Origin: a virus
Lineage: Duplodnaviria; Heunggongvirae; Uroviricota; Caudoviricetes
Direction: 5' to 3' (one strand)
Virus record (IMG/VR): IMGVR_UViG_2703718869_000013
Coordinates: 33,127-97,126 of that record
Length of the DNA: 64,000 bases
This document shows, piece by piece, positions 8,793 through 52,723 of the stretch. Under the pieces are notes generated by a model. It did no database searches. It was not told where the DNA came from and was given only the letters and a program-made list of their open reading frames with translations. Each line of letters opens with the position of its first letter. Positions within the stretch are counted from its first letter, which is position 1. Position numbers and translations under genes: made by a program.

Positions 8793-8809
8793 GAAATTTA
8801 TTAGAGCAA
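8793..8809. promoter_or_regulatory. C1-operator-like site upstream of kilA
   Basis: aaatttattagagcaaa matches the reverse complement of the P1 C1 operator consensus ATTGCTCTAATAAATTT at 16 of 17 positions. Confidence 0.6.
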
Positions 8810-8888
8810 ATTTTTCTGACTCGATCCAGATCGGGTTGGACGATCTGCTCAGAAACCTGCCAGTTTGCTGGCAGGTTTTTTTCTTTTG

Positions 8889-9932
8889 TTAACCTATTGC
8901 TACTGGTTTTAACAAACCAGCATCAAGTAGCTTGCGAGTTAACCACTGCTGGCCTTTACCCGTTAATTGGGGCGTCAGCCGTATCTGGTAGCCATTTTCA
9001 TCATCCAGCACCACTTCTTTCACCGTGAAATACCCGGCGTTAATGTACTGCTGGCGCGGTACGTTTTTGCGCGCACCAAAAGCCATGAGAATGCCGTTCT
9101 GGCGCAACCATGAGAAAAGGGCGTTTTGCTTAAGTCCAACGACCTTTGCAAAGTTCCCGATCAGGATTCCATTAGCCGCTGATACCCGGTCGGCAAAATC
9201 GACTTTAGGGGCTGCGGCCACCAGCTGTTGTTCCAACTGCATTTTCTGTTCTGCCAACTCGGCAGCCAGGCGTAGAGCTTCTGGTAATGTTTGGGGGATC
9301 GATGGGGTAGGGGAGTTTGCCTGCTGCAATTCTTCCAGTTTGTCGATCAGCGAACGGCGGACCGCTTTTGACTCGCGCGCGGCGACTCGCAAGGCTTGTT
9401 TGTAGGTCATGGTGATGACCTCAAAAGAGCGCCCAGCCCTTGTGCCATGGGATTTTGCACTTTTTGTGTAAAATTCACCTTCAAGTTCATCGAGTATTTT
9501 TTCGATGAATTTATTGTTTCTAACCTCTGGTTCTCCACATAACTTGCGTGCCTCATTGACCATCTTCAACAATGTTTGGCTGTCGATTGTGTCTCCGGTG
9601 TTGGGGATGACATTCACGGCTGGTGTTGGCGTAGCTGACGTAACAGGTGCTGGTTTCTCAACATTCAAATTTTTACCGGTCACTCTATGTGCCTCCTTTC
9701 TCATTTCTGCTGCCACCGTTGCGTAACGTAGACGTCCTTGTTCAATCAAATAATCCCTGATCTCGGCTATCAGTAGCCTGTTGATCACAGCCTTATCTGT
9801 TCGGGTATAAAAACGCCTGGTTATCATGAAATAGTTGGCAATTGCGCCGGGGATCTCCCGTGTCGGCATACAGGCAGTATGCAGGGCGATTGCTTCGGCT
9901 ATGTCATTACGGGTGACGAGAGGTTTTTTCAT
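8889..9932 (-). CDS. ant: antirepressor Ant (immI-like module A)
   Basis: 347 aa with a conserved ANT C-terminal domain; start overlaps the stop of a 73-aa icd-like ORF (ATGA), indicating translational coupling. Confidence 0.75.
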   Translation of the reverse strand: MKKPLVTRNDIAEAIALHTACMPTREIPGAIANYFMITRRFYTRTDKAVINRLLIAEIRDYLIEQGRLRYATVAAEMRKEAHRVTGKNLNVEKPAPVTSATPTPAVNVIPNTGDTIDSQTLLKMVNEARKLCGEPEVRNNKFIEKILDELEGEFYTKSAKSHGTRAGRSFEVITMTYKQALRVAARESKAVRRSLIDKLEELQQANSPTPSIPQTLPEALRLAAELAEQKMQLEQQLVAAAPKVDFADRVSAANGILIGNFAKVVGLKQNALFSWLRQNGILMAFGARKNVPRQQYINAGYFTVKEVVLDDENGYQIRLTPQLTGKGQQWLTRKLLDAGLLKPVAIG

Positions 9933-10150
9933 AAAACCCCCTGAACGTCGGCAGAGAAGGGGAGGTTCCAGTAACTAAGTGAATTGCGCGAGTTAGTTGA
10001 AAAACGGGCAGTAAAAATGCAGGGGCCATCAGGCAATTGAGAGCGTGCTTCGTCTTCTGTTGCTGCGATAACGAAGTGATAGTGGTGTTTTTTACAGGAA
10101 TAGAAACGCCAGATGAATTCTTGGCGTGCGCAAGGATTGGCATTAACCAT
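9929..10150 (-). CDS. icd: Icd-like small protein (module A)
   Basis: 73 aa (MVNANPCARQEFIWRF...), conserved in four copies, each directly upstream of and overlapping an ant gene. Confidence 0.6.
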   Translation of the reverse strand: MVNANPCARQEFIWRFYSCKKHHYHFVIAATEDEARSQLPDGPCIFTARFSTNSRNSLSYWNLPFSADVQGVL

Positions 10151-10224
10151 AGTTACGGCCTCACTAACAGGTTTAACAACCTGCTACCCGCTGTCAAACA
10201 GGTGGCAGGACGTGACAGGGTTGA

Positions 10225-10300
10225 CAGACTGGCGTTAGTGAAACCAGCAGGCCGAAGCCTCCCCATCACGCCCCACCATAATTCGGGCGTAACGCGGTTT
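10225..10300 (-). ncRNA. c4: c4-like antisense RNA (module A), approximate ends
   Basis: Conserved core (ggtggggcgtgatggggaggcttcggcctgctggttt on the minus strand) followed by heptamer CACTAAC; complementary GTTAGTG occurs upstream (plus 10345-10351) and at the icd RBS (plus 10162-10168). Confidence 0.55.
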
Positions 10301-10397
10301 ACGGACACAAAAATACCGCAATATCGGAAATCTGCGGTTGTCCGCACTAACATTCAGGCTGTCAAACCTGGTCGCAGAATTTGCTACGACGGCAGAA

Positions 10398-10425
10398 CTA
10401 TAAGCCTGAACGATTAAAAGGTCAA
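10398..10425 (-). promoter_or_regulatory. sigma70-like promoter of module A (TTGACC-N16-TATAGT)
   Basis: Reverse complement gives ttgacc then 16 nt then tatagt; the same element is conserved upstream of modules B and C. Confidence 0.5.
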
Positions 10426-10463
10426 TATGATGCGAAAAGATAGCATTCGCGACTTAAAAATAC

Positions 10464-10480
10464 AAATTTATTAGAGCATT
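10464..10480. promoter_or_regulatory. C1-operator-like site between module A and the sim locus
   Basis: aaatttattagagcatt, 16 of 17 match to the operator consensus; adjacent palindrome tttgtgcaataaatgcacaaa. Confidence 0.55.
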
Positions 10481-23576: not shown

Positions 23577-24154
23577 TGACATTCAGAATGAGTGAACAAT
23601 CACGGACCATAAAAATTTATAATCTACTGGCTGGAACCAATGAGTTTATTGGTGAAGGTGATGCATACATTCCACCTCATACAGGTCTGCCTGCAAACAG
23701 TACCGATATTGCCCCGCCAGATATTCCGGCTGGCTTCGTGGCCGTTTTCAACAGTGATGAGGCATCGTGGAATCTCGTTGAAGACCATCGGGGAAAAACC
23801 GTCTATGACGTGGCTTCCGGCGACGCGTTATTTATTTCTGAACTTGGCCCATTACCGGAAAATGTCACCTGGTTATCCCCGGAAGGGGAGTTTCAGAAGT
23901 GGAACGGCACAGCCTGGGTGAAAGATGCAGAAGCAGAAAAACTGTTCCGGATCCGGAAGGCGGAAGAAACAAAAAACAGCCTGATGCAGATGGCCAGTGA
24001 GCATATTGCGCCACTTCAGGATGCCGTAGATTTGGATATTGCGACGGAGGAAGAGGCATCGTTACTGACTGCATGGAAGACATATCGGGTATTGTTGAAT
24101 CGTGTTGATACAACAGTAGCATCGGATGTTGAGTGGCCAGTCGCCCCGCAATAA
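23576..24154 (+). CDS. tfa: tail fibre assembly protein (lambda Tfa-like)
   Basis: 192 aa, [44 protein letters not shown]..., near-identical over most of its length to lambda Tfa as I recall it. Confidence 0.85.
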
Positions 24155-29167: not shown

Positions 29168-30514
29168 CATCCTCCACGCCCCGAAGGGCGTGGATTCCTG
29201 CTACGTTCAGGCTGTCGCCTGAATCATTTCGGTGGGTTCCTGCTTCAACGGGCGGCCTGACTGCACCATCCCTCCACAGGCAAGTACGGCGTGTCCCGCC
29301 GCTAAAATGTTACGAGCGCCGTTTACATCGGCGTTCGCTGTATATCCACATACCTGGCATCTGAATTTACTTTGTGACAGGCGATTTTCTTTCGCTGTAT
29401 GACCACAGCACGCGCAACGCTGGCTTGTGTACGCTGGCGGAACAGCAAGCACCTGACCGCCACGCCAGAGCTGCTTGTACTCAAGCTGGCGGCGCATTTC
29501 ATACCAGCCCTGATCCAGTATCGAACGGTTTAAACCTGATTTTGCCCGGACATTGCGACCCGGATGACTTATCGTTCCCGCCGCTGACTTTGACATGTAT
29601 TTAACCTTCAAATCCTCAATGACAATCATTGCGTGGTTTTTGCTGATGATCGTTGTGACTTTATGAAGGTAGTCTCTGCGGATATTTGCGATACGAAAAT
29701 GCAGTCGCTGTATTTTGCGTTTCTGCTTCTGCCAGTTGTTGCTGAATTTGACCTTGCGGCTTAACTGTCGCTGAAGTCTCGCCAGCTTCTTCTGGTTTTT
29801 CTGAAAACTGTTTACAGGCTCAAAGACTGTGCCATCTGACAGCGTGGCGAGTTTAGCCACGCCAGCATCCAGCCCGATCATTGATGCTGAAGGGTGAACC
29901 GGAGTGGATATTTCACTTTCTGTCTGAATACTGATGTACCACTTACCGCAGGACTGGCTGACAGTGACATTTTTCACAACTCCCGTGACCTGACGGCTAT
30001 TCCGGTAGCGCATCCAGCCCAGTTTCGGCAGAAAAATACGGCTGTTTTCCTGATCGAGCTTAACGCCCTGCGGGTAGCGAAATGCATCATTCTGTCCCCG
30101 CTTTTTGAATCGGGGAAAAGCAGCCCGATTCTGGAAGAAGTTTTTGTAAGCCCGCTCAAGGTCTTTCAGTGACTGTTGCAATGGCTGTGAGGGAGAATCT
30201 ATAAGCCATTCGGTTTCAGTGTCTTTTTTCCACTCAACCAACCAGGAAGCCATTTTCGTGTAAGGGATGTATTTTTTACCGGCCTCATGATTCTCATTCT
30301 GAAGCGCCAGAGCACGGTTGAAAACGAAACGACAAGCTCCGGCAAAGTGCCTCATTTGACACTCCTGTTGACCATCTGGTTTTAACCGGAATTTGAATGA
30401 CACCTGTTGTTTCATGTCACTATTTTAAGCAAAAATAGCCGGGAGGAAAACTGTGCCTTATATCCCCACTATGAGGAGCGTAGGGGGCGGCACATTGGAT
30501 AAGGCGTAACAGGG
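29168..30514 (-). mobile_element. IS200/IS605-family insertion element carrying tnpB only; boundaries approximate
   Basis: TnpB ORF with flanking non-coding DNA inserted between ddrA and ddrB; subterminal hairpin ccacgccc cgaa gggcgtgg at 29174-29193; no tnpA ORF seen. Confidence 0.55.
29207..30415 (-). CDS. tnpB: TnpB (OrfB) RNA-guided nuclease-type transposase-associated protein
   Basis: 402 aa; RuvC-like motifs ([21 protein letters not shown]) and C-terminal zinc finger CACCGH...CQVCG. Confidence 0.85.
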
Positions 30515-36213: not shown

Positions 36214-36702
36214 TCAAAACGGAATATCGTCGTCAAAGTCCATTGGAGGTTCGTTATTAGCGTTGCTCTGAGGTTTACCGCCACCACTGTATTGCTGGTG
36301 GTTTTGAGGTTGGTTTGATTGCCCCCAGCCATTTGTGGACTGTGAATCGTCGCGACGAGCGCCGATCATTTGCATGGTGCCGCCCTGGCTGACGATAATT
36401 TCCGTCGTGTAACGTTCTACACCGGCGTCATCTGTCCACTTACGGGTTTTAAGTTTCCCTTCGATGTAGACCTGAGAACCTTTTCGTAAATACTCACTCG
36501 CAATTTCAGCAAGTTTTCCGAACAAAACGACTTTATGCCATTCTGTTTGCTCTTTCTGTTGGCCCGTTTGCTTGTCGCGCCATGATTCATTCGTTGCGAT
36601 GCTGAGTCTTCCGACCGCTCCGCCATTTGGTATATACCTGATCTCCGGGTCTTGCCCCAGGGTACCAATCAGGATGACTTTGTTTACACCGCGTTGTGCC
36701 AC
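36214..36702 (-). CDS. ssb: single-stranded DNA-binding protein
   Basis: 162 aa; OB-fold N-terminus typical of SSB, Gly/Gln-rich linker, acidic tail DFDDDIPF. Confidence 0.9.
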
Positions 36703-36721
36703 TTATCTTACCTAATAAAAT

Positions 36722-36738
36722 AAATTAATTAGAGCAAT
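36722..36738. promoter_or_regulatory. C1-operator-like site in the divergent ssb / lyz promoter region
   Basis: aaattaattagagcaat, 16 of 17 match to the operator consensus (reverse complement orientation). Confidence 0.55.
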
Positions 36739-36871
36739 AATGTATATCTTTGAAACGTAGCTAACAAGTGATTTGCATTATCCTGTGCCTTCTAAAGGGA
36801 TCGAGTCAGTCGGTATTGGCTGTGAATGGGTGTTTGTCCTGGAGCGTAAAAAATTCGCTTATGAGGTCTTT

Positions 36872-37429
36872 ATGAAGGGAAAAACAGCCGCAGGAGGCGG
36901 TGCAATTTGCGCTATCGCGATGATGATTACCATCGTGATGGATAATGGCAATGTGCGAACCAACCAGGCGGGGCTTGAGCTTATCGGAAACGCTGAAGGT
37001 TGCCGACGTGATCCATACAAGTGCCCGGCGGGTGTATGGACCGACGGGATCGGTAATACACACGGGGTAACGCCTGGCGTGCGAAAAACCGACCAGCAAA
37101 TCGCCGCTGATTGGGAAAAGAATATCCTGATCGCTGAACGCTGTATTAACCAGCACTTCCGGGGCAAAGACATGCCCGATAATGCCTTCAGCGCAATGAC
37201 AAGCGCGGCATTCAATATGGGATGCAATAGTTTACGGACCTACTACAGCAAAGCGCGAGGCATGCGAGTCGAAACGTCCATCCACAAGTGGGCGCAGAAA
37301 GGGGAATGGGTGAATATGTGTAACCATCTCCCTGATTTTGTGAACAGTAACGGCGTCCCCCTGCCCGGGTTAAAGATTCGCCGTGAAGAAGAACGCCAGC
37401 TTTGCCTGACGGGGCTTGTCAATGAATAA
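36872..37429 (+). CDS. lyz: SAR endolysin (P1 Lyz-like, T4-lysozyme family)
   Basis: 185 aa from MKGKTAAGGGAICAIAMMITIV (signal-anchor-release N-terminus) with catalytic E...CRRD...T triad region ELIGNAEGCRRDPYKCPAGVWTDGIGNT; the listed ORF starts earlier at 36773. Confidence 0.9.
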   Translation: MKGKTAAGGGAICAIAMMITIVMDNGNVRTNQAGLELIGNAEGCRRDPYKCPAGVWTDGIGNTHGVTPGVRKTDQQIAADWEKNILIAERCINQHFRGKDMPDNAFSAMTSAAFNMGCNSLRTYYSKARGMRVETSIHKWAQKGEWVNMCNHLPDFVNSNGVPLPGLKIRREEERQLCLTGLVNE

Positions 37430-37673
37430 ACTCCGGCAGCTCCGCCGACTTTCGACAATGAAGTTATCGCTGGCGGCGATAGTTTTTGACTCGATTTTCA
37501 TGGCGGTATATGTGCTCAATGAGACGTGGCCACTGGAACCACTATTATATGCCGGGCTTCGGCTGTGCCTGACATTTTTGAGCATGGCTGCAAGATTGAT
37601 GCAGCAGAAAGAAACCGCTTCAGATTGCCCACGTCGCGCGGTGCGCAAATATATGGCACGCAGGCGAAGATGA
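37422..37673 (+). CDS. small membrane protein overlapping the lyz stop (lysis-associated candidate)
   Basis: ATG at 37422 overlaps the lyz stop (ATGAATAA); two hydrophobic segments; basic C-terminus; the listed ORF starts at 37416. Confidence 0.3.
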   Translation: MNKLRQLRRLSTMKLSLAAIVFDSIFMAVYVLNETWPLEPLLYAGLRLCLTFLSMAARLMQQKETASDCPRRAVRKYMARRRR

Positions 37674-37683
37674 TTTAACCATT

Positions 37684-37717
37684 ATTGCTCTAATAAATTT
37701 GATTTATTAGAGCAAAT
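37684..37717. promoter_or_regulatory. paired inverted C1-operator-like sites upstream of module B
   Basis: ATTGCTCTAATAAATTT (perfect consensus, 37684-37700) followed by inverted atttattagagcaaat (37702-37717). Confidence 0.7.
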
Positions 37718-37741
37718 AACCTACCATCGAACACGGCTCTA

Positions 37742-37770
37742 TTGATCTCATCGTCGTTCAGGCTTATAGT
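37742..37770 (+). promoter_or_regulatory. sigma70-like promoter of module B (TTGATC-N17-TATAGT)
   Basis: ttgatc 37742-37747, tatagt 37765-37770. Confidence 0.5.
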
Positions 37771-37869
37771 TCCACCGTCGTAGCAAATTCTGCGACCAGG
37801 TTTGACAGCCTGAATACTTGTGCGGACAACCGCAGATTTCCGATATTGCGGTATTTTTGTGTCCGTAAA

Positions 37870-37950
37870 ACCGCGTTACGCCCGAATTATGGTGGGGCGT
37901 GATGGGGAGGCTTCGGCCTGCTGGTTTCACAAGTGCCAGTCTGTCAACCC
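37870..37950 (+). ncRNA. c4: c4-like antisense RNA (module B), approximate ends
   Basis: Core ggtggggcgtgatggggaggcttcggcctgctggtttca followed by a' CACAAGT (37928-37934) and b' CTGTCA; complementary ACTTGTG at 37816-37822 and 38000-38006, and TGACAG upstream and downstream. Confidence 0.6.
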
Positions 37951-38017
37951 TGTCACGTCCTGCCACCTGTTTGACAGCGGGTAGCAGGTTGTTAATTCAA
38001 CTTGTGAGGCCGTAACT

Positions 38018-38239
38018 ATGGTTAATGCCAATCCTTGCGCACGCCAAGAATTCATCTGGCGTTTCTATTCCTGTAAAAAACACCACTATCACTTCGTTAT
38101 CGCAGCAACTGAAGACGAAGCACGCTCTCAATTGCCTGATGGCCCCTGCATTTTTACTGCCCGTTTTTCAACTAACTCGCGCAATTCACTTAGTTACTGG
38201 AGCCTCCCCTTCTCTGCCGACGTTCAGGGGGGTTTATGA
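38018..38239 (+). CDS. icd: Icd-like small protein (module B)
   Basis: 73 aa, stop overlaps the ant start; RBS overlapped by the ACTTGTG target heptamer. Confidence 0.6.
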   Translation: MVNANPCARQEFIWRFYSCKKHHYHFVIAATEDEARSQLPDGPCIFTARFSTNSRNSLSYWSLPFSADVQGGL

Positions 38240-39279
38240 AAAAACCTCTCGTCACCCGTAATGACATAGCCGAAGCGATCGCCCTGCATACTGCCTGTAT
38301 GCCGACACGGGAGATCCCCGGCGCAATTGCCAACTATTTCATGATAACCAGGCGTTTTTATACCCGAACAGATAAGGCTGTGATCAACAGGCTACTGATA
38401 GCCGAGATCAGGGATTATTTGATTGAACAAGGACGTCTACGTTACGCAACGGTGGCAGCAGAAATGAGAAAGGAGGCACATAGAATGACCAGTAATAATT
38501 TGAATGTTAAAAAACCAGCATCTGTTGCTTCAGCTACGCCATCACCAGCTGTGAATGTTATCTCCAACACTGGAGATACAATCGACAGCCAGACGCTGTT
38601 AAAGATGGTTAATGAGGCGCGCAAGCTATGTGGGGAAAATGAGATCCGCAATAACGATTTTCTCAATAGAATTAAGGATGAACTTGATGGGGAATTTTAC
38701 GAAACTTTCGTAAAATCCCATGGCACAAGGGCCGGGCGCTCTTTTGAGGTCATAACCATGACCTACAAACAAGCCCTGCGAGTCGCCGCGCGCGAGTCAA
38801 AAGCGGTCCGCCGTTCGCTGATCGACAAACTGGAAGAATTGCAGCAGGCAAACTCCCCTACCCCATCGATCCCCCAAACATTACCAGAAGCCCTACGTCT
38901 GGCTGCCGAGTTAGCAGAACAGAAAATGCAGTTGGAACAACAGCTGGTGGCCGCAGCCCCTAAAGTCGATTTTGCTGACCGGGTATCAGCGGCTAATGGA
39001 ATCCTGATCGGGAACTTTGCAAAGGTCGTTGGACTTAAGCAAAACGCCCTTTTCTCATGGTTGCGCCAGAACGGCATTCTCATGGCTTTTGGTGCGCGCA
39101 AAAACGTACCGCGCCAGCAATACATCAACGCCGGGTATTTCACGGTGAAAGAAGTGGTGCTGGATGATGAAGATGGTTACCAGATACGGCTGACGCCCCA
39201 ATTAACGGGTAAAGGCCAGCAGTGGTTGACGCGTAAACTGCTCGATGCAGGTTTATTAAAGCCTGTAGCGGCTGAGTGA
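38236..39279 (+). CDS. ant: antirepressor Ant (module B)
   Basis: 347 aa, about 90 percent identical to the module A Ant by eye; conserved ANT C-terminal domain. Confidence 0.75.
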   Translation: MKKPLVTRNDIAEAIALHTACMPTREIPGAIANYFMITRRFYTRTDKAVINRLLIAEIRDYLIEQGRLRYATVAAEMRKEAHRMTSNNLNVKKPASVASATPSPAVNVISNTGDTIDSQTLLKMVNEARKLCGENEIRNNDFLNRIKDELDGEFYETFVKSHGTRAGRSFEVITMTYKQALRVAARESKAVRRSLIDKLEELQQANSPTPSIPQTLPEALRLAAELAEQKMQLEQQLVAAAPKVDFADRVSAANGILIGNFAKVVGLKQNALFSWLRQNGILMAFGARKNVPRQQYINAGYFTVKEVVLDDEDGYQIRLTPQLTGKGQQWLTRKLLDAGLLKPVAAE

Positions 39280-39309
39280 TTAAATTAAAAAGGCGGCCTT
39301 TCGGCCGCC
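39280..39309. terminator. bidirectional hairpin terminator between ant B and pro
   Basis: ggcggcc tttc ggccgcc preceded by an A/T run; the same element follows ant C at 46975-47000. Confidence 0.5.
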
Positions 39310-39354
39310 AGTGATTTCAGATACCCCGGCAGCCGCCGGGGTTATTTTTGGTGG

Positions 39355-42085
<2,731 letters not shown>

Positions 42086-42387
42086 TTAATTAGAACAATT
42101 CACATCATGTTTGAACGGAATTTAACACTAGTCACTTGTTAAGGATTACCAATGAACAAGCTATCTATGTGGTGTTTCGCTGTTCAAGTGTCAGCGAAAT
42201 ATTGAAATATATTAGTGCAATAACATTTCATCGGGCGCCGATTAGATACGGCGTGGAAAAGGTGGAAGGCAAAAGCTATGACCGACTACGCCGGACGTGA
42301 AATAATATGTCCACACTATCTGATACAATAAAACCGAATAGGACATAACTTCGACGTCAAAGCCTTGGCACAGGCTGGAGAGAAAAC

Positions 42388-42674: not shown

Positions 42675-43409
42675 TTATTTTCCAGATAATAACTGATGTT
42701 TTGCATATTCACGTGGCGTGCAATTATAATATTGCCTGAACAGGCACACAAAGTACGATGTACTACTAAAGCCACAGCTTTCTGATACTTGTTTGACTGA
42801 ATGATTTTGCTTTAGTAATTTAATAGCGAAAGCCATCCGTGTATCAAGTAATAACTTACTGAAGGAGGTGTTTTCCAATAATAGTTTTTTCTTTATTAAG
42901 CTTTCACTCATGTAGAGATAATCGGTTAGGTCTCTTAGTTTCCAGTGTTTAGATACATCTGAAAGAAATATGCTGCGCACTTTCCCTGAGAAAGTGGGCA
43001 TACCAGACGTAAGAAATGCTCTAAAGTTATCAACATCATTAAAAATTGAGAGTAATGAAAAAGTTACTGCCTCCCTAAAATCAGAATGGATATGATTTTG
43101 GTCGCTTATATTATCGATCATCCTGATTAATAAATCAGGATAGGCAAAAGACTTTTTTAGCAAATGTGGACACTTATCCAGCGATTGGTTTCCAAGGTTG
43201 TTGCTGCATAATAAATAGTTTCTTACGGTATTATCATTGAGTTCGAATTCTATATATTTGTCTGAATACATTTTTAAGCATTCATGCTCAGAATGCTTAA
43301 GCAACAACACATCACCGTAATTTAATATCAAGAAATCCTTAAGAAATTGAAAGCTTATAGGTTTCTTTATGAGTATGAAGTAACAAACTGCTGACATGGC
43401 CACCACCAT
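42675..43409 (-). CDS. AraC-family transcriptional regulator (AppY/EnvY-like)
   Basis: C-terminal helix-turn-helix region LIKKKLLLENTSFSKLLLDTRMAFAIKLL...GFSSTSYFVCLFRQYY closely resembles E. coli AppY as I recall it; AT-rich gene. Confidence 0.8.
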   Translation of the reverse strand: MVVAMSAVCYFILIKKPISFQFLKDFLILNYGDVLLLKHSEHECLKMYSDKYIEFELNDNTVRNYLLCSNNLGNQSLDKCPHLLKKSFAYPDLLIRMIDNISDQNHIHSDFREAVTFSLLSIFNDVDNFRAFLTSGMPTFSGKVRSIFLSDVSKHWKLRDLTDYLYMSESLIKKKLLLENTSFSKLLLDTRMAFAIKLLKQNHSVKQVSESCGFSSTSYFVCLFRQYYNCTPREYAKHQLLSGK

Positions 43410-43661: not shown

Positions 43662-44351
43662 ATGGAAGTTATCTACATTGCAGAACCAATCATTTCTACG
43701 AGCACGAACAAGTTGATTGCAGTAGAAGTGTTAAGCAGATTTCGCTCCAAAGATGGTGTCGCTCTTCCTACTCAAAGAGTATTGGGTATGTTTACCAATA
43801 AGATGAAGATTAATTTACTTAAATCACAACTTAACACAATAATGAAATACAAGTGTTTTTTTGAACGCCATAATATACTATGTTCTATTAATGTAGATTA
43901 TGATACATGTATATATATATACAGTAATAAACAAACTCAAGAGTTAATTAAAAACAATAAATTTATAGCTCTTGAGATATCAGAAAACTACCCTGATTTA
44001 AGCGATGAGGATTACGTTATACCCTTTCTCCTGACTTTGACAGACTATGTTTGGCTTGATGATTTTGGAAGTGGCAACACCACCATGAAAACATTAATTA
44101 AAAATAAATACCATGCAATAAAACTTGATAAGGCCTTTTTCCAAGAATATGGGACTAATCCTCATTTTGATGTCATTATTAGTAATTTAAAAAAATTATG
44201 CCCGAATATCATCGCTGAAGGTGTTGAAAACATTGAGTGTCATAAGCTATCAAAAGGGATAGGGCTATGGGGTGCCCAGGGATATTTTTTTCCATCAATT
44301 CCTCTGGTGGAGATTGAGTCCATAGATAGTAAGTGGCTATCAGATTTATGA
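43662..44351 (+). CDS. stand-alone EAL-domain c-di-GMP phosphodiesterase (PdeH/YhjH-like)
   Basis: 229 aa with conserved EAL catalytic motifs: EVL, EISE, DDFGSGNTT, KLDK, EGVE, QGY; architecture and length like E. coli PdeH. Confidence 0.8.
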   Translation: MEVIYIAEPIISTSTNKLIAVEVLSRFRSKDGVALPTQRVLGMFTNKMKINLLKSQLNTIMKYKCFFERHNILCSINVDYDTCIYIYSNKQTQELIKNNKFIALEISENYPDLSDEDYVIPFLLTLTDYVWLDDFGSGNTTMKTLIKNKYHAIKLDKAFFQEYGTNPHFDVIISNLKKLCPNIIAEGVENIECHKLSKGIGLWGAQGYFFPSIPLVEIESIDSKWLSDL

Positions 44352-45309: not shown

Positions 45310-45326
45310 ATTGCTCTAATAAATTT
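45310..45326. promoter_or_regulatory. C1-operator-like site upstream of module C
   Basis: ATTGCTCTAATAAATTT, perfect match to the consensus, followed by a degenerate inverted copy. Confidence 0.7.
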
Positions 45327-45496
45327 GATTTATTGGGGCAAATAAACTACTATTGGACGCCAGACTATTGATCTTCCTGTTGTTCAGGCTTATAGTTCCT
45401 ACGCCGTAGCAAATTCTGCGACCGGGTTTAGCAGCCTGAATGTACATGCGGACAACCGCAGATTTCCGATATTGCGGTATTTTTATGTCCGTAAAA

Positions 45497-45577
45497 CCGC
45501 GTTACGCCCGAATTATGGTGGGGCGTGATGGGGAGGCTTCGGCCTGCTGGTTTCATGTACGCCAGTCTGCTAACCCC
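45497..45577 (+). ncRNA. c4: c4-like antisense RNA (module C), approximate ends
   Basis: Same core as module B; a' CATGTAC (45554-45560) with targets GTACATG at 45442-45448 and 45626-45632; b elements TAGCAG / CTGCTA instead of TGACAG / CTGTCA. Confidence 0.6.
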
Positions 45578-45643
45578 GTCACGTCCTGCCACCCGTTTAG
45601 CAGCGGGTAGCAGGTTGTTAAACCTGTACATGAGGCCGTAACT

Positions 45644-45865
45644 ATGGTTAATGCCAATCCTTGCGCACGCCCTGAATTTATCTGGCGCTTTTACTCCTGC
45701 CAGAAACGCCACTATCACTTCGTTATTGCACCGACAGAAGATGAGGCACGTTCTCAGCTTCCGGATGCTCCCTGCATTTTCTCCGCACGCTTTTCTACTG
45801 ACTCGCGCAATTCTCTCAGTTACTGGTGCCTCCCTGTTAACGCTTCTGTTCAGGAGGGGCTATGA
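45644..45865 (+). CDS. icd: Icd-like small protein (module C)
   Basis: 73 aa paralog; stop overlaps the ant start. Confidence 0.6.
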   Translation: MVNANPCARPEFIWRFYSCQKRHYHFVIAPTEDEARSQLPDAPCIFSARFSTDSRNSLSYWCLPVNASVQEGL

Positions 45866-46974
45866 GAACGTCATTAGTCACCCGTGAAGAGATGATCGAG
45901 GCAATTGAACAGCACACAATCTGTATCAGCACCAGGGATATACCAGGCGTTATTGCCAACTACTTCATGATCACCAAACAACTTTACCGGAGAAAGGACA
46001 AGAACGCGGTTCACCGTATCCTGTTGTCTGATATCCGCGAATACCTGCTCGAACAGGGTCATCTGAATTACGCAACCGTCGCAGCCGAAGCACGCAAGGA
46101 GGCACACAGAATGAAAGCAACTAACGTTAAATCAGAAAAAATTTATGCACCTTCAGTTCAGGAATCGGAACTGGTGGTTGTTCAGAATCAGCCGGATGAA
46201 ATTCCCGTTCTGGAATGGCAGGGAGTACGTGTCGTAACAACCGAAACTCTTGCTAGAGGGTATGGGGTCGATGAAGCCAATATTCGCAACAATTTGTCTC
46301 GCAACCTTGACCGCTTTGAAGAAGGTAAGCATTACTTTCTTCTAACTGGTTTAAAATTAAGAGAATTTAAGAACAGAGTAACCGGAAGTTACTCTGTTGG
46401 TAAGAACGCCAGAAGCCTTACACTCTGGACAGAGCGCGGCGCTGCACGCATGTCTAAGATCGTGGACACAAATGAAGCATGGGCATTCTTTGAAAAACTG
46501 GAAGACAGCTACTTCCGGCAAAAAGAACAGCAACCGGTCGCAATCCCTCAGACGCTTCCCGAAGCTCTGCGCCTGGCTGCCGAGCTGGCTGAACAAAAGC
46601 AACTTCTGGAACAGAAAGCCCACCAGCTAAATCAGCAGCTGGTGGCCGCCGCCCCTAAAGTCGATTTTGCCGACCGGGTATCAGGGGCCAAGGGGATCCT
46701 GATTGGAAATTTTGCAAAGGTTGTTGGGCTTAAGCAAAACGCGTTGTTTGCCTGGTTACGGGGGAACGGCATCCTGATAGCGTCCGGTGGACGTAAAAAT
46801 GTGCCGTTCCAGCAATACATCAACGCCGGGTATTTCACGGTGAAAGAAGTGGTGCTGGATGATGAAGATGGTTACCAGATACGGCTGACGCCCCAATTAA
46901 CGGGTAAAGGCCAGCAGTGGTTGACGCGTAAACTGCTCGAAGCTGGCTTGTTAAAACCGGTGGCGGCTGAATGA
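45862..46974 (+). CDS. ant: antirepressor Ant, type 2 (module C)
   Basis: 370 aa; different central domain from modules A/B (AntA/ORF6N-like, PVLEWQGVRVVTTETLARGYG) plus the shared ANT C-terminus. Confidence 0.75.
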   Translation: MRTSLVTREEMIEAIEQHTICISTRDIPGVIANYFMITKQLYRRKDKNAVHRILLSDIREYLLEQGHLNYATVAAEARKEAHRMKATNVKSEKIYAPSVQESELVVVQNQPDEIPVLEWQGVRVVTTETLARGYGVDEANIRNNLSRNLDRFEEGKHYFLLTGLKLREFKNRVTGSYSVGKNARSLTLWTERGAARMSKIVDTNEAWAFFEKLEDSYFRQKEQQPVAIPQTLPEALRLAAELAEQKQLLEQKAHQLNQQLVAAAPKVDFADRVSGAKGILIGNFAKVVGLKQNALFAWLRGNGILIASGGRKNVPFQQYINAGYFTVKEVVLDDEDGYQIRLTPQLTGKGQQWLTRKLLEAGLLKPVAAE

Positions 46975-49506: not shown

Positions 49507-49523
49507 AGAATTATTAGAGCAAT
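49507..49523. promoter_or_regulatory. C1-operator-like site (Op99-type) upstream of coi/c1
   Basis: agaattattagagcaat, 15 of 17 match to the operator consensus. Confidence 0.5.
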
Positions 49524-49583: not shown

Positions 49584-49610
49584 TTGACAATTGCTCTAAT
49601 AAATTATAGT
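49584..49610 (+). promoter_or_regulatory. promoter TTGACA-N15-TATAGT overlapped by a C1-operator-like site (49590-49606)
   Basis: ttgaca 49584-49589, tatagt 49605-49610, with ATTGCTCTAATAAATTa embedded; classic repressor-over-promoter arrangement directing transcription toward coi and c1. Confidence 0.6.
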
Positions 49611-50164: not shown

Positions 50165-51016
50165 ATGATAAATTATGTCTACGGCGAACAACTGTACCAG
50201 GAGTTCGTCAGCTTCAGGGATCTCTTTCTAAAAAAAGCTGTTGCACGCGCCCAACACGTTGATGCCGCCAGCGACGGTCGTCCTGTACGCCCGGTTGTCG
50301 TTCTGCCGTTCAAAGAAACGGACAGCATTCAGGCTGAAATTGATAAATGGACTTTAATGGCGCGGGAACTGGAACAGTACCCAGACCTCAATATCCCAAA
50401 GACTATTTTATATCCAGTGCCTAACATCCTTCGCGGTGTGCGTAAGGTTACAACTTATCAGACAGAAGCTGTGAACAGCGTCAACATGACCGCTGGCCGC
50501 ATTATTCATCTGATTGATAAGGACATTCGCATCCAGAAAAGCGCGGGGATCAATGAGCACAGTGCGAAATACATAGAGAACCTGGAAGCAACAAAAGAGC
50601 TAATGAAGCAGTACCCGGAGGATGAAAAATTCCGTATGCGTGTACACGGCTTTAGCGAAACAATGCTGCGCGTCCATTACATTTCCAGTAGCCCTAACTA
50701 CAATGATGGTAAATCAGTTAGTTACCATGTGCCGCTGTGTGGTGTGTTTATCTGCGATGAAACTCTCCGTGATGGAATCATCATCAACGGTGAATTCGAG
50801 AAAGCAAAATTTAGCCTTTATGACTCTATAGAACCGATCATCTGCGACCGCTGGCCGCAGGCAAAAATATATCGCCTGGCAGATATTGAAAATGTAAAAA
50901 AACAAATTGCCATCACTCGCGAAGAGAAAAAGGTTAAGTCAGCCGCATCAGTTGCGCGCAGCCGTAAAACCAAGAAGGGGCAGCCAGTAAACGACAACCC
51001 CGAAAGCGCGCAATAA
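50165..51016 (+). CDS. c1: C1-like primary repressor of lysogeny
   Basis: 283 aa, P1 C1 size; strong RBS GGAGGAGG; many matches to the C1 operator consensus across the window. Confidence 0.75.
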   Translation: MINYVYGEQLYQEFVSFRDLFLKKAVARAQHVDAASDGRPVRPVVVLPFKETDSIQAEIDKWTLMARELEQYPDLNIPKTILYPVPNILRGVRKVTTYQTEAVNSVNMTAGRIIHLIDKDIRIQKSAGINEHSAKYIENLEATKELMKQYPEDEKFRMRVHGFSETMLRVHYISSSPNYNDGKSVSYHVPLCGVFICDETLRDGIIINGEFEKAKFSLYDSIEPIICDRWPQAKIYRLADIENVKKQIAITREEKKVKSAASVARSRKTKKGQPVNDNPESAQ

Positions 51017-51048: not shown

Positions 51049-52167
51049 TTATTCAGCCGCCACCGGTTTTAACAAGCCAGCATCGAGCAGTTTACGCGTC
51101 AACCACTGCTGGCCTTTACCCGTTAATTGAGGCGTCAACCGTATCTGGTAGCCATCTTCATCATCCAGCACCACTTCTTTCACCGTGAAATACCCGGCGT
51201 TGATGTACTGCTGGAACGGCACATTTTTACGTCCACCGGACGCTATCAGGATGCCGTTCTCCCGTAACCAGACAAACAGCGCGTTTTGCTTAAGTCCAAC
51301 AACCTTTGCAAAATTCCCAATCAGGATCCCTTTAGCTACTGATACCCGGTCGGCAAAATCGACTTTAGGAGCGGCGGCCACCAGCTGCTGATTTAGCTGG
51401 TGGGCTTTCTGTTCCAGAAGTTGCTTTTGTTCAGCCAGTTCGGCAGCCAGGCGTAGGACTTCAGGAAGCGTCTGGGGGATTGCGATCGGTTGCTGTTCTT
51501 TTTGTCGGAAGTAGCTGTCTTCCAGTTTTTCAAAGAATGCCCATGCCTGATCGGTTTCGAGCATTTTAGCGTGGCGGGCTGCGCCGCGTTCTGTCCAGAG
51601 GGTGAGTGAGCGAACATTGCGAGCAATTTTTACAGAGTAGTTTAAAGCTACTCTGTGCTTCAACTCGCGCAATGATTCTCCTTCAACTTTGAAAAAGTGC
51701 TTCCCTTCAACAAAGCGTACTTTGTTCTCATGATGATTTTGGCGAATACGGATTGTTTCTGTCCCATACCCTCTCGCAAGAGTCTCGGTTGTCACTACAC
51801 GCACTCCCTGCCATTCCAGAACGGGAATTTCATCAGACTGATTCTGAACAACCACCAGCTCCGATTCCTGAACTGAAGGTGCATGAATTTTTTCTAATTT
51901 AACGTTATTTGCTTTCATTCTGTGTGCCTCCTTGCGTGCTTCGGCTGCGACGGTTGCGTAATTCAGATGACCCTGTTCGAGCAGGTATTCGCGGATATCA
52001 GACAACAGGATACGGTGAACCGCGTTCTTGTCCTTTCTCCGGTAAAGTTGTTTGGTGATCATGAAGTAGTTGGCAATAACGCCAGGTATATCCCTGGTGC
52101 TGATACAGATTGTGTGCTGTTCAATTGCCTCGATCATCTCTTCACGGGTGACTAATGACGTTCTCAT
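51049..52167 (-). CDS. ant: antirepressor Ant, type 2 (module D)
   Basis: 372 aa, close paralog of the module C Ant. Confidence 0.75.
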   Translation of the reverse strand: MRTSLVTREEMIEAIEQHTICISTRDIPGVIANYFMITKQLYRRKDKNAVHRILLSDIREYLLEQGHLNYATVAAEARKEAHRMKANNVKLEKIHAPSVQESELVVVQNQSDEIPVLEWQGVRVVTTETLARGYGTETIRIRQNHHENKVRFVEGKHFFKVEGESLRELKHRVALNYSVKIARNVRSLTLWTERGAARHAKMLETDQAWAFFEKLEDSYFRQKEQQPIAIPQTLPEVLRLAAELAEQKQLLEQKAHQLNQQLVAAAPKVDFADRVSVAKGILIGNFAKVVGLKQNALFVWLRENGILIASGGRKNVPFQQYINAGYFTVKEVVLDDEDGYQIRLTPQLTGKGQQWLTRKLLDAGLLKPVAAE

Positions 52168-52385
52168 AGTCCCTCCTGAGCAGAAGCGTTAACAGGGAGG
52201 CACCAGTAACTGAGAGAATTGCGTGAATCAGTGGAAAAACGGGCAGAGAAAATACATGGGGCGTCAGGAAGCTGAGAGCGAGCCTCATCTTCTGTTGGTG
52301 CAATAACGAAGTGATAGTGACGTTTTTGGCAGGAGTAAAAGCGCCAGATAAATTCAGGATGAGTTGGGGTAGGGATAGTAGCCAT
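52164..52385 (-). CDS. icd: Icd-like small protein (module D)
   Basis: 73 aa from MATIPTPTHPEFIWRF...; RBS AAGGAGG; the listed 187-aa ORF (to 52727) is an upstream read-through artefact. Confidence 0.55.
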   Translation of the reverse strand: MATIPTPTHPEFIWRFYSCQKRHYHFVIAPTEDEARSQLPDAPCIFSARFSTDSRNSLSYWCLPVNASAQEGL

Positions 52386-52469
52386 ATTGGCAGCCTCCTT
52401 AGACGTTGGTATGTAACCACCGCAGAAGAGACCAATCTTGCTGGCGGTGGACTGTACGGAGTTGGCCTT

Positions 52470-52530
52470 ACTGGCGTCCAAGGTAACCAGCCTACCCGAA
52501 GGTAGCCCCATACAGCCCACCATTGTAGAG
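52470..52530 (-). ncRNA. c4: divergent c4-like antisense RNA (module D), approximate ends
   Basis: Minus-strand core ggtgggctgtatggggctaccttcgggtaggctggtta; loop CTTGGACG can pair with CGTCTAAG at the icd RBS (one G-U wobble); GTCTAAG also upstream (plus 52581-52587). Confidence 0.45.
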
Positions 52531-52703
52531 GTGTGCGTGTACGCCGATACAAAAAAAGACGCGAGCGGCGTCTGTATCGCCTTAGACTTAAGCGGGAGGC
52601 CAATCCCGGCACCCGTTTTAATGAGGTGCCTGATAAGCATAAACCGAAAATGCCTCAAGGCGCAAGAGGTCAGGCTCAATGTAACATCGGTAGTTAAAAA
52701 ACA

Positions 52704-52720
52704 CAATTTATTAGAGCAAA
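52704..52720. promoter_or_regulatory. C1-operator-like site upstream of module D
   Basis: caatttattagagcaaa, 15 of 17 match to the operator consensus. Confidence 0.55.
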
Positions 52721-52723
52721 TAT

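What the first reader, a model, noticed from the sequence alone, without database searches (positions are those of the whole stretch)
37797..38006. Module-specific, internally compensated antisense elements (a1/b1, a'/b', a2/b2)
In module B the heptamer ACTTGTG occurs upstream of the c4 core (37816-37822) and again overlapping the icd RBS (38000-38006), while the c4 core is followed by the exact complement CACAAGT (37928-37934). Module A uses GTTAGTG / CACTAAC and module C uses GTACATG / CATGTAC at the same three positions. A second element co-varies the same way (TGACAG / CTGTCA in A and B, TAGCAG / CTGCTA in C). Three-way compensatory change is the signature of P1/P7-type antisense specificity, so each module should be regulated only by its own RNA.
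Basis: seen in the sequence. Interest (0 to 1): 0.9.

Follow-up and report, generated by a model that had tools for sequence, protein, structure and literature searches.

The report
Four c4 antisense antirepressor switches
A P1-like phage-plasmid carries four copies of the known P1/P7 "c4 antisense RNA, icd, antirepressor" switch, and each copy has its own matched set of short RNA recognition sequences. This is a well-understood mechanism with new specificity variants, stacked to an unusual degree in one genome.

Summary
In module B, ACTTGTG lies at 37816-37822 and 38000-38006, and its complement CACAAGT lies at 37928-37934 in the hairpin loop of a C4 RNA (Rfam RF01695, 68.6 bits against a cut-off of 45). 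Modules A and C carry GTTAGTG and GTACATG at the same three positions. The second element, TTGACAG or TTAGCAG, co-varies in the same way.

The window is a P1-like phage-plasmid. The elements are the a1/b1, a'/b' and a2/b2 sites annotated in phage P1.
- Module A has exactly P1's specificity.
- Module C combines P7's a element with a new b element.
- Module B combines P1's a element with a rare new b element.
- Module D is a fourth module of the isrK type (52380-52760, minus strand) that follows the same logic with unrelated sequences.

In 161 related modules, 155 of the 158 readable ones match at all three positions. There are 8 b alleles and 2 a alleles in 13 combinations. On alignment A2, 99.8-100% of cells pair, against 26-52% in slid controls. 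Predicted cognate b pairing is -11 to -12 kcal/mol; non-cognate pairing is -1 to -7.

The mechanism has been known since 1990. The new points are the extra alleles, their reassortment, and the stacking of four C1-controlled cassettes. Strict exclusivity is untested, because modules A and B share the a element.

The parts
37684..37700 (+). Module B: C1 repressor operator (ATTGCTCTAATAAATTT, 0 mismatches), followed by an inverted partial copy up to about 37719
   Evidence: 9 matches with up to 2 mismatches in the window against 0.03 expected. Homologous to P1 operator Oc4/Op51.
37742..37770 (+). Module B: sigma-70-like promoter TTGATC-17-TATAGT, aligned with P1 promoter P1c4 (formerly P51b)
37764..37816 (+). 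Module B: leader hairpin that carries a1 (Rfam c4-a1b1, RF03163)
   Evidence: 57.1 bits against a cut-off of 46.7. Fold.
37802..37808 (+). Module B a1: TTGACAG (P1-type a allele)
   Evidence: Pairs with a' in 100% of relatives.
37816..37822 (+). Module B b1: ACTTGTG (rare b allele)
37885..37970 (+). Module B: C4 antisense RNA. By homology with P1 48343-48419, the mature form is about 77 nt and lies inside this span.
   Evidence: RF01695, 68.6 bits against 45. Fold: -43.3 kcal/mol, z = -4.9.
37928..37934 (+). Module B b': CACAAGT, in the 9-nt hairpin loop of c4
37941..37947 (+). Module B a': CTGTCAA, in the single-stranded junction of c4
37971..37977 (+). Module B a2: TTGACAG, immediately 3' of c4
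38000..38009 (+). Module B b2: ACTTGTG (38000-38006), running into the icd Shine-Dalgarno GAGG (38006-38009). The c4 loop UUUCACAAGU can pair with all 10 nt.
38018..38239 (+). Module B icd (73 aa, 96-99% identical to P1/P7 Icd). Its stop codon overlaps the ant start (ATGA).
38236..39279 (+). Module B antirepressor (347 aa, 92% identical to P1 Ant1, with a KilAC/ANT domain)
37670..39322 (+). Extent of cassette B, inserted between the lysozyme/holin genes and pro. Its flanks are contiguous in plasmid pE2855-2, where this site is empty.
8889..10480 (-). Module A, at the canonical immI site next to kilA/repL.
- Operator: 10464-10480
- a1: 10359-10365
- b1: GTTAGTG 10345-10351
- c4: 10198-10283
- b': 10234-10240
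- a': 10221-10227
- a2: 10191-10197
- b2: 10162-10168
- icd: 9929-10150
- ant: 8889-9932

Its specificity is identical to that of phage P1.
45310..46974 (+). Module C, near cre.
- Operator: 45310-45326
- a1: TTAGCAG 45428-45434
- b1: GTACATG 45442-45448
- c4: 45511-45596
- b': 45554-45560
- a': 45567-45573
- a2: 45597-45603
- b2: 45626-45632
- icd: 45644-45865
- ant: 45862-46974 (370 aa, with an ORF6N domain)
51049..52720 (-). Module D, of the isrK type, between pacB and c1.
- Operator: 52704-52720
- isrK-like leader: 52552-52629, carrying a1 ATTGGCC (52598-52604) and b1 GTCTAAGG (52580-52587)
- Leader terminator: 52557-52573
- c4: 52440-52527
- b': CCTTGGAC 52476-52483
- a': GGCCAA 52462-52467
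- a2: ATTGGTC 52430-52436
- b2: GTCTAAGG 52397-52404, abutting the Shine-Dalgarno sequence
- icd: 52164-52385
- ant: 51049-52167
50165..51016 (+). c1, the master repressor. It is the presumed target of the four antirepressors and the regulator of their operators.
   Evidence: ORF. Homologous gene annotated 'phage repressor protein C1'.

Best explanation
Each of the four modules is a self-contained immI-type cassette of the kind described for phages P1 and P7. The order of parts is: a C1-operator-controlled promoter; a leader carrying a1 and b1; the c4 RNA; the targets a2 and b2; icd; and an antirepressor gene translationally coupled to icd.

**Proposed mechanism.** The c4 RNA is cut out of the leader and folds into a long stem. 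The stem presents b' in a hairpin loop and a' in a single-stranded junction. These pair with a2 and b2 on the icd-ant mRNA. The b'/b2 duplex extends over the icd Shine-Dalgarno sequence, so icd is not translated and the downstream antirepressor is not made. The prophage therefore stays repressed by C1. The upstream a1/b1 copy competes for the same c4 loops, either within the precursor or, in the isrK-type module D, as a short terminated leader RNA that can act in trans as an activator.

**Specificity.** The 7-nt b element has 8 alleles and a 2-nt core of the a element has 2 alleles. Together they set which c4 RNA recognises which cassette. The window holds four different settings: A = P1 type, B = P1 a with ACTTGTG, C = P7 a with GTACATG, D = an unrelated pair.

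**Shown here:** family membership, anatomy, loop placement, three-way covariation, and predicted energy discrimination.

**Inferred from P1/P7 and IsrK work:** processing, translational block, trans action, and heteroimmunity.
For: - Rfam matches: C4 four times, c4-a1b1 twice, isrK once.
- The P1 record annotates a1, b1, c4, a2, b2, Oc4 and the promoters at the aligned positions.
- P1 and P7 differ at the same columns as modules A, B and C.
- The predicted folds put b' and a' in unpaired regions.
- Covariation is 99.8-100% of cells paired, with 8 of 14 pairs changed on both sides. No shuffle of 500 reaches the covariation score, and slid controls give 26-52%.
- 155 of 158 readable modules from IMG/VR, metagenomes and reference phages match at all three positions.
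- The isrK-type family shows a second, fully co-varying allele set, TTAGGAC/AATCAAGG.
- Cognate b duplexes are -11.1 to -11.9 kcal/mol for all 8 alleles; non-cognate duplexes are -0.8 to -7.0. Within the window.
- Every cassette has a C1 operator upstream and intact icd and KilAC-antirepressor ORFs.
- In one genome, a cassette with a swapped b2 (L035) is matched exactly in both a and b by the c4 of a co-resident cassette (L034). This fits trans action.
- Reviews and papers describing the mechanism: PMC12197685, PMC8546580, PMC4825925.
Against: - No expression, processing or repression data exist for this element.
- Modules A and B share the a element. Their b-level discrimination equals that between P1 and P7, which also differ in a. 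Partial A/B cross-repression therefore cannot be excluded.
- Three natural exceptions (L035, L156, L162) show that a mismatched element is at least transiently tolerated.
- The role of a1/b1 is only 'putative' even in the P1 annotation.
- c4-a1b1 does not reach Rfam's gathering score for module C, although the sequence aligns.
Confidence: 0.85

Rival explanations
1. The cassettes form a partly redundant network rather than four private circuits. c4 RNAs that share one element (A and B share a = TTGACAG) cross-repress each other's icd-ant, so the effective number of specificities is lower than four.
For: - A and B have identical a1, a' and a2.
- The summed predicted a+b energy for A/B cross pairs is about -13 kcal/mol, against -20 for cognate pairs.
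- pOkiPb01689_2 keeps two cassettes with the same b and different a. Sharing one element among co-residents is therefore tolerated.
Against: - The b duplex is the one that covers the ribosome-binding site. For A against B it drops from -11.7 to about -5 kcal/mol, the same drop that separates the experimentally heteroimmune P1 and P7.
- In the 13 multi-module IMG/VR groups (same contig or genome) examined, and in the window itself, no two modules share both a and b.
Confidence: 0.25
2. The complementarities work mainly in cis, as alternative structures of the leader. The a1/b1 segment would sequester the c4 loops, or the c4 segment would sequester the ribosome-binding site within the same transcript. 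They would then tune processing or translation of each operon, and allele differences would have no role in trans specificity.
For: - In the IsrK locus, the leader and the downstream segment form an inactive intramolecular structure, and mutations act in cis (PMC4825925).
- All six elements lie on one transcript.
- The 286-nt leader folds much better than shuffled sequences (z = -5.45).
Against: - The same paper shows trans action of the short leader RNA.
- c4 of P1/P7 is described as trans-acting and as the basis of heteroimmunity.
- The swapped b2 of L035 is matched by the c4 of another cassette in the same genome.
- A purely cis role would not explain eight alleles of equal predicted strength that reassort with two a alleles.
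Confidence: 0.12
3. The matched heptamers are a by-product of recombination or gene conversion between repeated leader segments, and are not selected for pairing. Alternatively, modules B to D are decaying, non-functional copies.
For: - Cassettes clearly move and recombine. Cassette B is 98.6% identical to a cassette at a different site in pE2855-2.
- a and b alleles reassort.
- Three recombinant mismatches exist.
Against: - Gene conversion can make b1 equal b2, but it cannot make b' their reverse complement.
- Variation is confined to the pairing columns (21 of 29 variable columns, p = 2e-12), in an otherwise 92%-conserved region.
- All four icd and ant ORFs are intact, each with a Shine-Dalgarno sequence and a C1 operator.
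Confidence: 0.03

Closest known systems
immI operon of phages P1 and P7: c4 antisense RNA, icd and ant1/2 (Citron & Schuster 1990, Cell 62:591; Rfam RF01695 and RF03163)
   Same: - The order of parts is the same: C1 operator, promoter, a1/b1 leader, c4, a2/b2, icd, ant.
- The regulatory region is 90-95% identical.
- Module A has exactly P1's a and b sequences, and its Ant is 97% identical to P1 Ant1.
- The P1-versus-P7 differences fall in the same columns.
   Different: - Module B uses b = ACTTGTG and module C uses b = GTACATG. Neither was found at this site in P1, P7, RCS47, JL22, SJ46 or D6.
- a and b alleles are recombined: C has P7's a with a non-P7 b, and B has P1's a with a non-P1 b.
- There are four cassettes at four sites instead of one.
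- Two of the antirepressors (C and D) carry an ORF6N middle domain that P1 Ant1 lacks.
IsrK / STnc1160 / orf45-anrP locus of the Salmonella Gifsy-1 prophage (Hershko-Shalev et al. 2016, PMC4825925; Rfam RF01394)
   Same: - Module D matches the isrK model (60.8 bits against 50) directly upstream of a C4 match.
- It has a leader terminator between the leader and c4.
- It is followed by a small ORF coupled to an antirepressor gene.
   Different: - Module D sits in a P1-like plasmid prophage under a C1 operator.
- The small ORF is an Icd homologue (70-88% identical to the other three).
- Pairing is read here in the P1 a/b scheme, which that paper does not use. The paper compares IsrK with P4 SeqA.
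Satellite phage P4 immunity: CI RNA with seqA, seqB and seqC
   Same: The logic is the same. A small RNA processed from a leader carries a sequence complementary to one copy upstream and one copy downstream on the same transcript. This comes from my own knowledge and from the comparison drawn in PMC4825925.
   Different: In P4 the outcome is premature transcription termination of replication genes, not a block on the ribosome-binding site of an antirepressor operon. No P4 genes are present here. Membership was not tested.
Extra icd-ant copies noted in P1-like and D6-like plasmids (Venturini et al. 2019, PMC6906374; PMC6799933)
   Same: [quoted passage not shown] These correspond to the sites of modules D and C.
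   Different: Those reports list the genes only. In the passages retrieved from them I found no analysis of c4 recognition sequences, their alleles or their co-variation.

Membership tests
C4 antisense RNA (Rfam RF01695) / P1-P7 immI | Sequence and structure match to the C4 covariance model above the curated threshold | tested here: met
   B 68.6, A 68.8, C 71.7 and D 75.9 bits, against a gathering score of 45. All are full-length matches.
C4 antisense RNA (Rfam RF01695) / P1-P7 immI | The recognition sequences a' and b' are exposed in unpaired regions of a stable stem structure | tested here: met
   b' lies in a 9-10-nt hairpin loop and a' in the junction in all four RNAs. MFE is -41.6 to -45.4 kcal/mol and z is -3.5 to -5.2.
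C4 antisense RNA (Rfam RF01695) / P1-P7 immI | Targets a2 and b2 lie downstream on the same transcript, with b2 at the ribosome-binding site of icd | tested here: met
   a2 follows the Rfam C4 match directly (A, B, C) or within a few nt (D), and b2 abuts the Shine-Dalgarno sequence in all four modules. Pairing is 99.8% across relatives.
C4 antisense RNA (Rfam RF01695) / P1-P7 immI | A second copy of the targets (a1/b1) lies upstream in a conserved leader hairpin (Rfam RF03163) | tested here: met
   57.1 bits (B) and 55.5 bits (A) against 46.7. Module C does not reach the threshold but aligns base for base. Module D matches isrK instead. Pairing is 100%.
C4 antisense RNA (Rfam RF01695) / P1-P7 immI | Operon content: icd followed by an overlapping antirepressor gene with a KilAC domain | tested here: met
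   four 73-aa Icd homologues, and four Ant proteins with PF03374 (E about 1e-31).
C4 antisense RNA (Rfam RF01695) / P1-P7 immI | Control by the C1 repressor through an operator upstream of the promoter | tested here: met
   an operator consensus match lies upstream of each module, with 9 sites against 0.03 expected. Binding itself was not tested.
C4 antisense RNA (Rfam RF01695) / P1-P7 immI | Specificity is set by compensatory changes in a and b (the basis of P1/P7 heteroimmunity) | tested here: met
   Comparative evidence only.
C4 antisense RNA (Rfam RF01695) / P1-P7 immI | Processing of c4 to about 77 nt (RNase P) and repression of Ant synthesis in trans | not testable with these tools
   Needs RNA analysis and reporter assays. 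The conserved CCACC 3' segment is present in all four modules.
IsrK Hfq-binding RNA (Rfam RF01394), module D only | Match to the isrK model, ending in an intrinsic terminator that yields a short leader RNA | tested here: met
   60.8 bits against 50; terminator-like site at 52573-52557 (-).
IsrK Hfq-binding RNA (Rfam RF01394), module D only | The short leader RNA activates downstream translation in trans; Hfq binding | not testable with these tools
   Shown for Gifsy-1 only (PMC4825925).
P4 CI RNA / seqA-seqB-seqC immunity | P4-type leader with CI RNA controlling transcription termination of the alpha operon | not tested
   Considered only as a mechanistic analogue. No P4-like genes appear in the ORF list or in the homologous annotations.

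The most novel reading that the evidence does not exclude
The c4 recognition loops form a combinatorial RNA immunity code, with at least 8 b alleles and 2 a alleles, all tuned to the same predicted pairing strength. This code would be under diversifying, arms-race selection among P1-like phage-plasmids.

Complete cassettes (operator, promoter, c4, icd, ant, hairpin) would move between at least five genomic sites. Elements would accumulate up to five cassettes with different settings. A resident would then silence the antirepressors of several heteroimmune relatives. Its own varied antirepressors, which come in two architectures, would let it break the C1 repression of residents that lack the matching c4.
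Probability: 0.35. Interest if true: 0.6.

Novelty: new member of a known kind. Interest (0 to 1): 0.4.

Why it matters
The P1/P7 c4 system is the classic case in which two or three base changes in an antisense RNA, matched in its targets, create a new immunity type. This window and its relatives show that the same switch exists in many more settings than the two studied experimentally.

- The a and b halves reassort freely.
- All b alleles keep nearly the same predicted duplex strength.
- About 10% of complete E. coli genomes carry at least one such module, with up to five places in one genome.

This gives a ready-made natural set of short, seemingly orthogonal RNA-RNA recognition pairs that can be tested directly. 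It also bears on which P1-like phage-plasmids, many of which carry resistance genes, can coexist in a cell or exclude each other. It does not reveal a new mechanism.

Tried and rejected
- **Failed scan.** My first IMG/VR scan had one N too many after GGTTTC and found nothing. The corrected pattern found 113 loci.
- **Regex faults, not biology.** My first regexes missed the upstream sites. A later one read b2 one base out of register, which produced spurious mismatches. The apparent exceptions L013, L127 and L185 were register artefacts of a GGAGCC-type Shine-Dalgarno sequence, and they are consistent by eye.
- **Heptamer enrichment rejected.** The idea that the heptamer is over-represented in the window is wrong: 8 matches against 7.7 expected.
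- **Module positions corrected.** I first assumed module B sat at the canonical P1 immI site. Module A is the canonical one, next to kilA/repL. Module B is an insertion between lyz/holin and pro.
- **Source of the window not found.** No record is at least 99% identical over 36500-39500 in complete E. coli genomes or in PLSDB.
- **Primary papers not available.** Citron & Schuster 1990/1992, Heinrich 1994 and Lobocka 2004 are not held in the library. The mechanistic steps therefore rest on the P1 GenBank annotation, on reviews, and on my own knowledge.
- **Weaker claim on co-residence.** I considered arguing that co-resident cassettes are always mutually orthogonal. pOkiPb01689_2 has two cassettes with the same b, so only the weaker statement holds: no two share both a and b.

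Full report
**1. What is in the sequence**

ACTTGTG occurs at 37816-37822 and 38000-38006, and its reverse complement occurs at 37928-37934. The heptamer as such is not enriched in the window: 8 matches against 7.7 expected. What matters is where the copies sit.

A scan against Rfam finds four C4 antisense RNAs (RF01695):

| Module | C4 coordinates | Strand | Bits |
|---|---|---|---|
| A | 10198-10283 | - | 68.8 |
| B | 37885-37970 | + | 68.6 |
| C | 45511-45596 | + | 71.7 |
| D | 52440-52527 | - | 75.9 |

The gathering score is 45. The same scan finds the 'a1, b1 targets of C4' motif (RF03163) upstream of A and B. It also finds an isrK match (RF01394) directly upstream of the C4 of module D.

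**2. What the window is**

The window is a P1-like phage-plasmid. The best matches are E. coli plasmids of about 90-100 kb that carry P1 genes such as lysozyme, ssb, head processing protein, C1 repressor, phd/doc and terminase.

Each C4 is followed by a 73-aa Icd homologue and then by an overlapping antirepressor gene with a KilAC/ANT domain. Each is preceded by a match to the 17-bp C1 operator consensus. The window has 9 such matches against 0.03 expected, with one upstream of every module. The c1 gene itself lies at 50165-51016.

**3. Identity of the elements**

The P1 GenBank record annotates a1, b1, c4, a2, b2, the operator Oc4 and two promoters. The heptamer next to the ribosome-binding site is P1's b.

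| Source | a | b |
|---|---|---|
| P1 and module A | TTGACAG | GTTAGTG |
| P7 | TTAGCAG | GATTGTG |
| Module B | TTGACAG | ACTTGTG |
| Module C | TTAGCAG | GTACATG |

Module A therefore has exactly P1's specificity, and its Ant is 97% identical to P1 Ant1. Module C combines P7's a with a different b. Module B combines P1's a with a different b.

Module D uses unrelated sequences in the same layout: a = ATTGGCC (a1) / ATTGGTC (a2), a' = GGCCAA, b = GTCTAAGG, b' = CCTTGGAC. One G-U wobble occurs in each b duplex (b1, b2) and in the a'/a2 duplex; a1/a' is Watson-Crick. Its b2 again abuts the Shine-Dalgarno sequence.

**4. Is it more than chance?**

Among the window's three P1-type modules, 29 of 235 aligned columns vary. 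Of these, 21 lie in the 42 columns of the six elements (p = 2e-12), and all are compensated.

To test this beyond the window, I scanned IMG/VR and a metagenome collection with the invariant C4 core, leaving the loops as N. Together with P1, P7 and the window, this gave 161 modules, of which 158 have all six elements readable. Of those, 155 match at all three positions. There are eight b alleles:

| b allele | Count |
|---|---|
| GATTGTG | 45 |
| GTTAGTG | 36 |
| ACGAATG | 28 |
| ACTTACG | 26 |
| GTACATG | 20 |
| ACTTGTG | 3 |
| GTTCAAG | 2 |
| AGCAAAG | 1 |

With two a alleles, these occur in 13 combinations, so a and b reassort.

On a 39-sequence alignment, the results were:

| Measure | c4 with a2/b2 | a1/b1 with c4 |
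|---|---|---|
| Cells paired | 99.8% | 100% |
| Pairs changed on both sides | 8 of 14 | 8 of 14 |
| Covariation score (shuffled mean) | 0.577 (0.204) | 0.585 (0.203) |
| Shuffles reaching the score | 0 of 500 | 0 of 500 |

Slid controls gave 26-52% of cells paired.

The isrK-type family shows a second complete allele set (a = TTAGGAC, b = AATCAAGG) that also co-varies at all three positions.

**5. Structure and predicted discrimination**

All four c4 RNAs fold into the same long stem. b' sits in a 9-10-nt hairpin loop and a' sits in a single-stranded junction. The loop of module B, UUUCACAAGU, can pair with ACUUGUGAGG, which means b2 plus the Shine-Dalgarno sequence.

Within the window, cognate b'/b2 duplexes are -11.6 to -13.9 kcal/mol and non-cognate ones are -2.1 to -6.0. 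Across all eight b alleles, cognate duplexes are -11.1 to -11.9 and non-cognate ones are -0.8 to -7.0. The even cognate strength across alleles is notable.

The P1-versus-P7 cross energy at b is -4.9/-5.2, and the A-versus-B value is the same. P1 and P7 also differ in a, whereas A and B do not.

**6. Mechanism**

The best-supported reading is the P1/P7 immI mechanism. c4 is processed from the leader of the operon. It pairs with a2/b2 and blocks translation of icd, which prevents expression of the coupled antirepressor that would otherwise inactivate C1. The held literature describes c4 as trans-acting and as the basis of P1/P7 heteroimmunity (PMC12197685; PMC8546580).

The further details are from my own knowledge of Citron & Schuster 1990/1992 and Biere et al. 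1992, which I could not read here. These details are the 77-nt processed form, RNase P processing, and Rho-dependent polarity.

The role of a1/b1 is only 'putative' in the P1 record. For the isrK type, a short terminated leader RNA has been shown to activate translation of the downstream ORF and antirepressor, both in cis and in trans (PMC4825925). Module D has the corresponding leader terminator. By analogy, a1/b1 most likely titrates or sequesters the c4 loops.

**7. Exclusivity**

The claim that each module answers only to its own RNA is plausible but unproven. In its favour are the energy gaps at b, and the fact that in the 13 multi-module IMG/VR groups examined (same contig or genome), and in the window itself, no two modules share both a and b.

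There is also a natural experiment. In one genome, a cassette (L035) has a b2 swapped to GTTAGTG. That b2 is matched exactly, in both a and b, by the c4 of a second cassette (L034).

Against strict exclusivity:
- A and B share a.
- The plasmid pOkiPb01689_2 carries five cassettes, two of which share b = GTACATG with different a.
- Two further recombinant mismatches exist: L156 has a swapped a', and L162 has a swapped leader.

Cross-repression among co-resident cassettes would not harm a lysogen. Diversity within one genome is therefore better explained by the benefit of covering more specificities than by a need for insulation.

**8. Cassette nature**

Cassette B (about 37670-39322) is 98.6% identical to the cassette at the canonical immI site of pE2855-2. 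Its flanks are contiguous in that plasmid, where the lyz-pro site is empty.

B and C share the same 5' operator palindrome and the same 3' GGCGGCC hairpin. In the window, A occupies the canonical site next to kilA/repL, B lies between lyz/holin and pro, C lies near cre, and D lies between pacB and c1. pOkiPb01689_2 adds a fifth site.

The antirepressors come in two architectures. A and B are of the P1 Ant1 type. C and D are 88% identical to each other and 55-58% identical to the P1 type, and they carry an ORF6N middle domain.

**9. Comparison with what is known**

The RNA family, the a/b scheme and the compensatory basis of specificity are established. Extra icd-ant copies in P1-like and D6-like plasmids have been mentioned in passing (PMC6906374; PMC6799933).

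In the held literature I found no analysis of the recognition alleles, their reassortment or their stacking. The library lacks most subscription papers, notably the D6 genome paper, so this absence is weak evidence.

The named phages examined carry P1, P7 or ACTTACG alleles at this site: JL22 GA/GATTGTG, RCS47 AG/GATTGTG, SJ46 AG/ACTTACG, D6 GA/ACTTACG. None of them carries ACTTGTG or GTACATG there.

P1-type modules occur in 536 of 5,426 complete E. coli genomes. There are 665 places in all, with a median of one per genome and a maximum of five.

**10. Verdict**

This is a known mechanism with new specificity alleles, stacked to an unusual degree in one element.

I rate the interest as moderate, at 0.4. 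A specialist would not be surprised by the mechanism. The eight-by-two allele set of equal predicted strength, the mobile cassette and the multi-cassette genomes do, however, make the evolution of RNA-based immunity specificity directly testable.

Noticed in passing
window 51049-52720 (-): The fourth module (D) is of the isrK type. An isrK-like leader with its own terminator (52557-52573) precedes a divergent C4. Its a/b sequences are unrelated to those of the other three modules but are equally self-consistent. A second co-varying allele set for this type occurs in L127 and L132.
   Followed up: yes
window 8794-8810, 10464-10480, 36722-36738, 37684-37700, 42205-42221, 45310-45326, 49507-49523, 49590-49606, 52704-52720: There are nine matches (up to 2 mismatches) to the C1 operator consensus ATTGCTCTAATAAATTT, against 0.03 expected. 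One lies upstream of each of the four cassettes. In B and C the operator is part of a near-palindrome.
   Followed up: partly
window 37670-39322; L146 (pE2855-2) 13433-13453 and 38766-40295: Cassette B is a discrete insertion of about 1.65 kb at a lyz-pro junction that is empty in pE2855-2. It is 98.6% identical to that plasmid's cassette at the canonical immI site. I saw no flanking direct repeats. Cassettes B and C share both end sequences.
   Followed up: partly
window 45862-46974 (+) and 51049-52167 (-): Antirepressors C and D carry an ORF6N domain (PF10543) in place of the middle segment of P1 Ant1. They are 88% identical to each other and only 55-58% identical to AntA, AntB and P1 Ant1. 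AntB differs from AntA mainly in a short stretch around residues 130-165.
   Followed up: partly
L035 and L034 (same IMG genome 2565956613); L156; L162: These are the only real exceptions among the 158 readable modules.
- L035 has a b2 of the P1 type, which matches the c4 of the co-resident L034.
- L156 has a P7-type a' with P1-type a1 and a2.
- L162 has a leader (a1/b1) from a different allele pair.

All three look like recombination joints.
   Followed up: partly
L148 + L149 (NZ_AP042542.1, pOkiPb01689_2): This single plasmid has five icd-ant cassettes at five sites. Two of them share b = GTACATG but differ in a (GA against AG).
   Followed up: partly
all P1-type modules; window 37980-37989 (GGGTAGCAGG): The conserved spacer between a2 and b2 contains TAGCAG, which is the core of the P7-type a element. 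A P7-type a' therefore has a second 6-nt match in every module, which inflates its predicted off-target energy (-10.9 kcal/mol). This may be chance.
   Followed up: no
b alleles across the survey: All eight b alleles give almost the same predicted cognate duplex energy (-11.1 to -11.9 kcal/mol). This suggests that pairing strength is held constant while the sequence changes.
   Followed up: partly
L144 (IMGVR_UViG_2698536372_000019) 1001-1021 and 2567-2587: Two D-type C4 cores lie about 1.5 kb apart on the same strand, seemingly with the same specificity. This may be a tandem duplication of the whole cassette.
   Followed up: no
window 23919-24117 (+); 29207-30415 (-): An Rfam IS009 match (192 bits) lies inside the tail-fibre assembly region. 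A 402-aa ORF corresponds to an InsQ/TnpB RNA-guided endonuclease annotated at the homologous position of p08_4358-1.
   Followed up: no
window 42675-43409 (-) and 43662-44351 (+): The ORFs between pro/portal and module C correspond to a helix-turn-helix protein and an EAL-domain protein in the homologous plasmid annotation. They sit where P1 has res/mod, so they are cargo genes at a known variable region.
   Followed up: no
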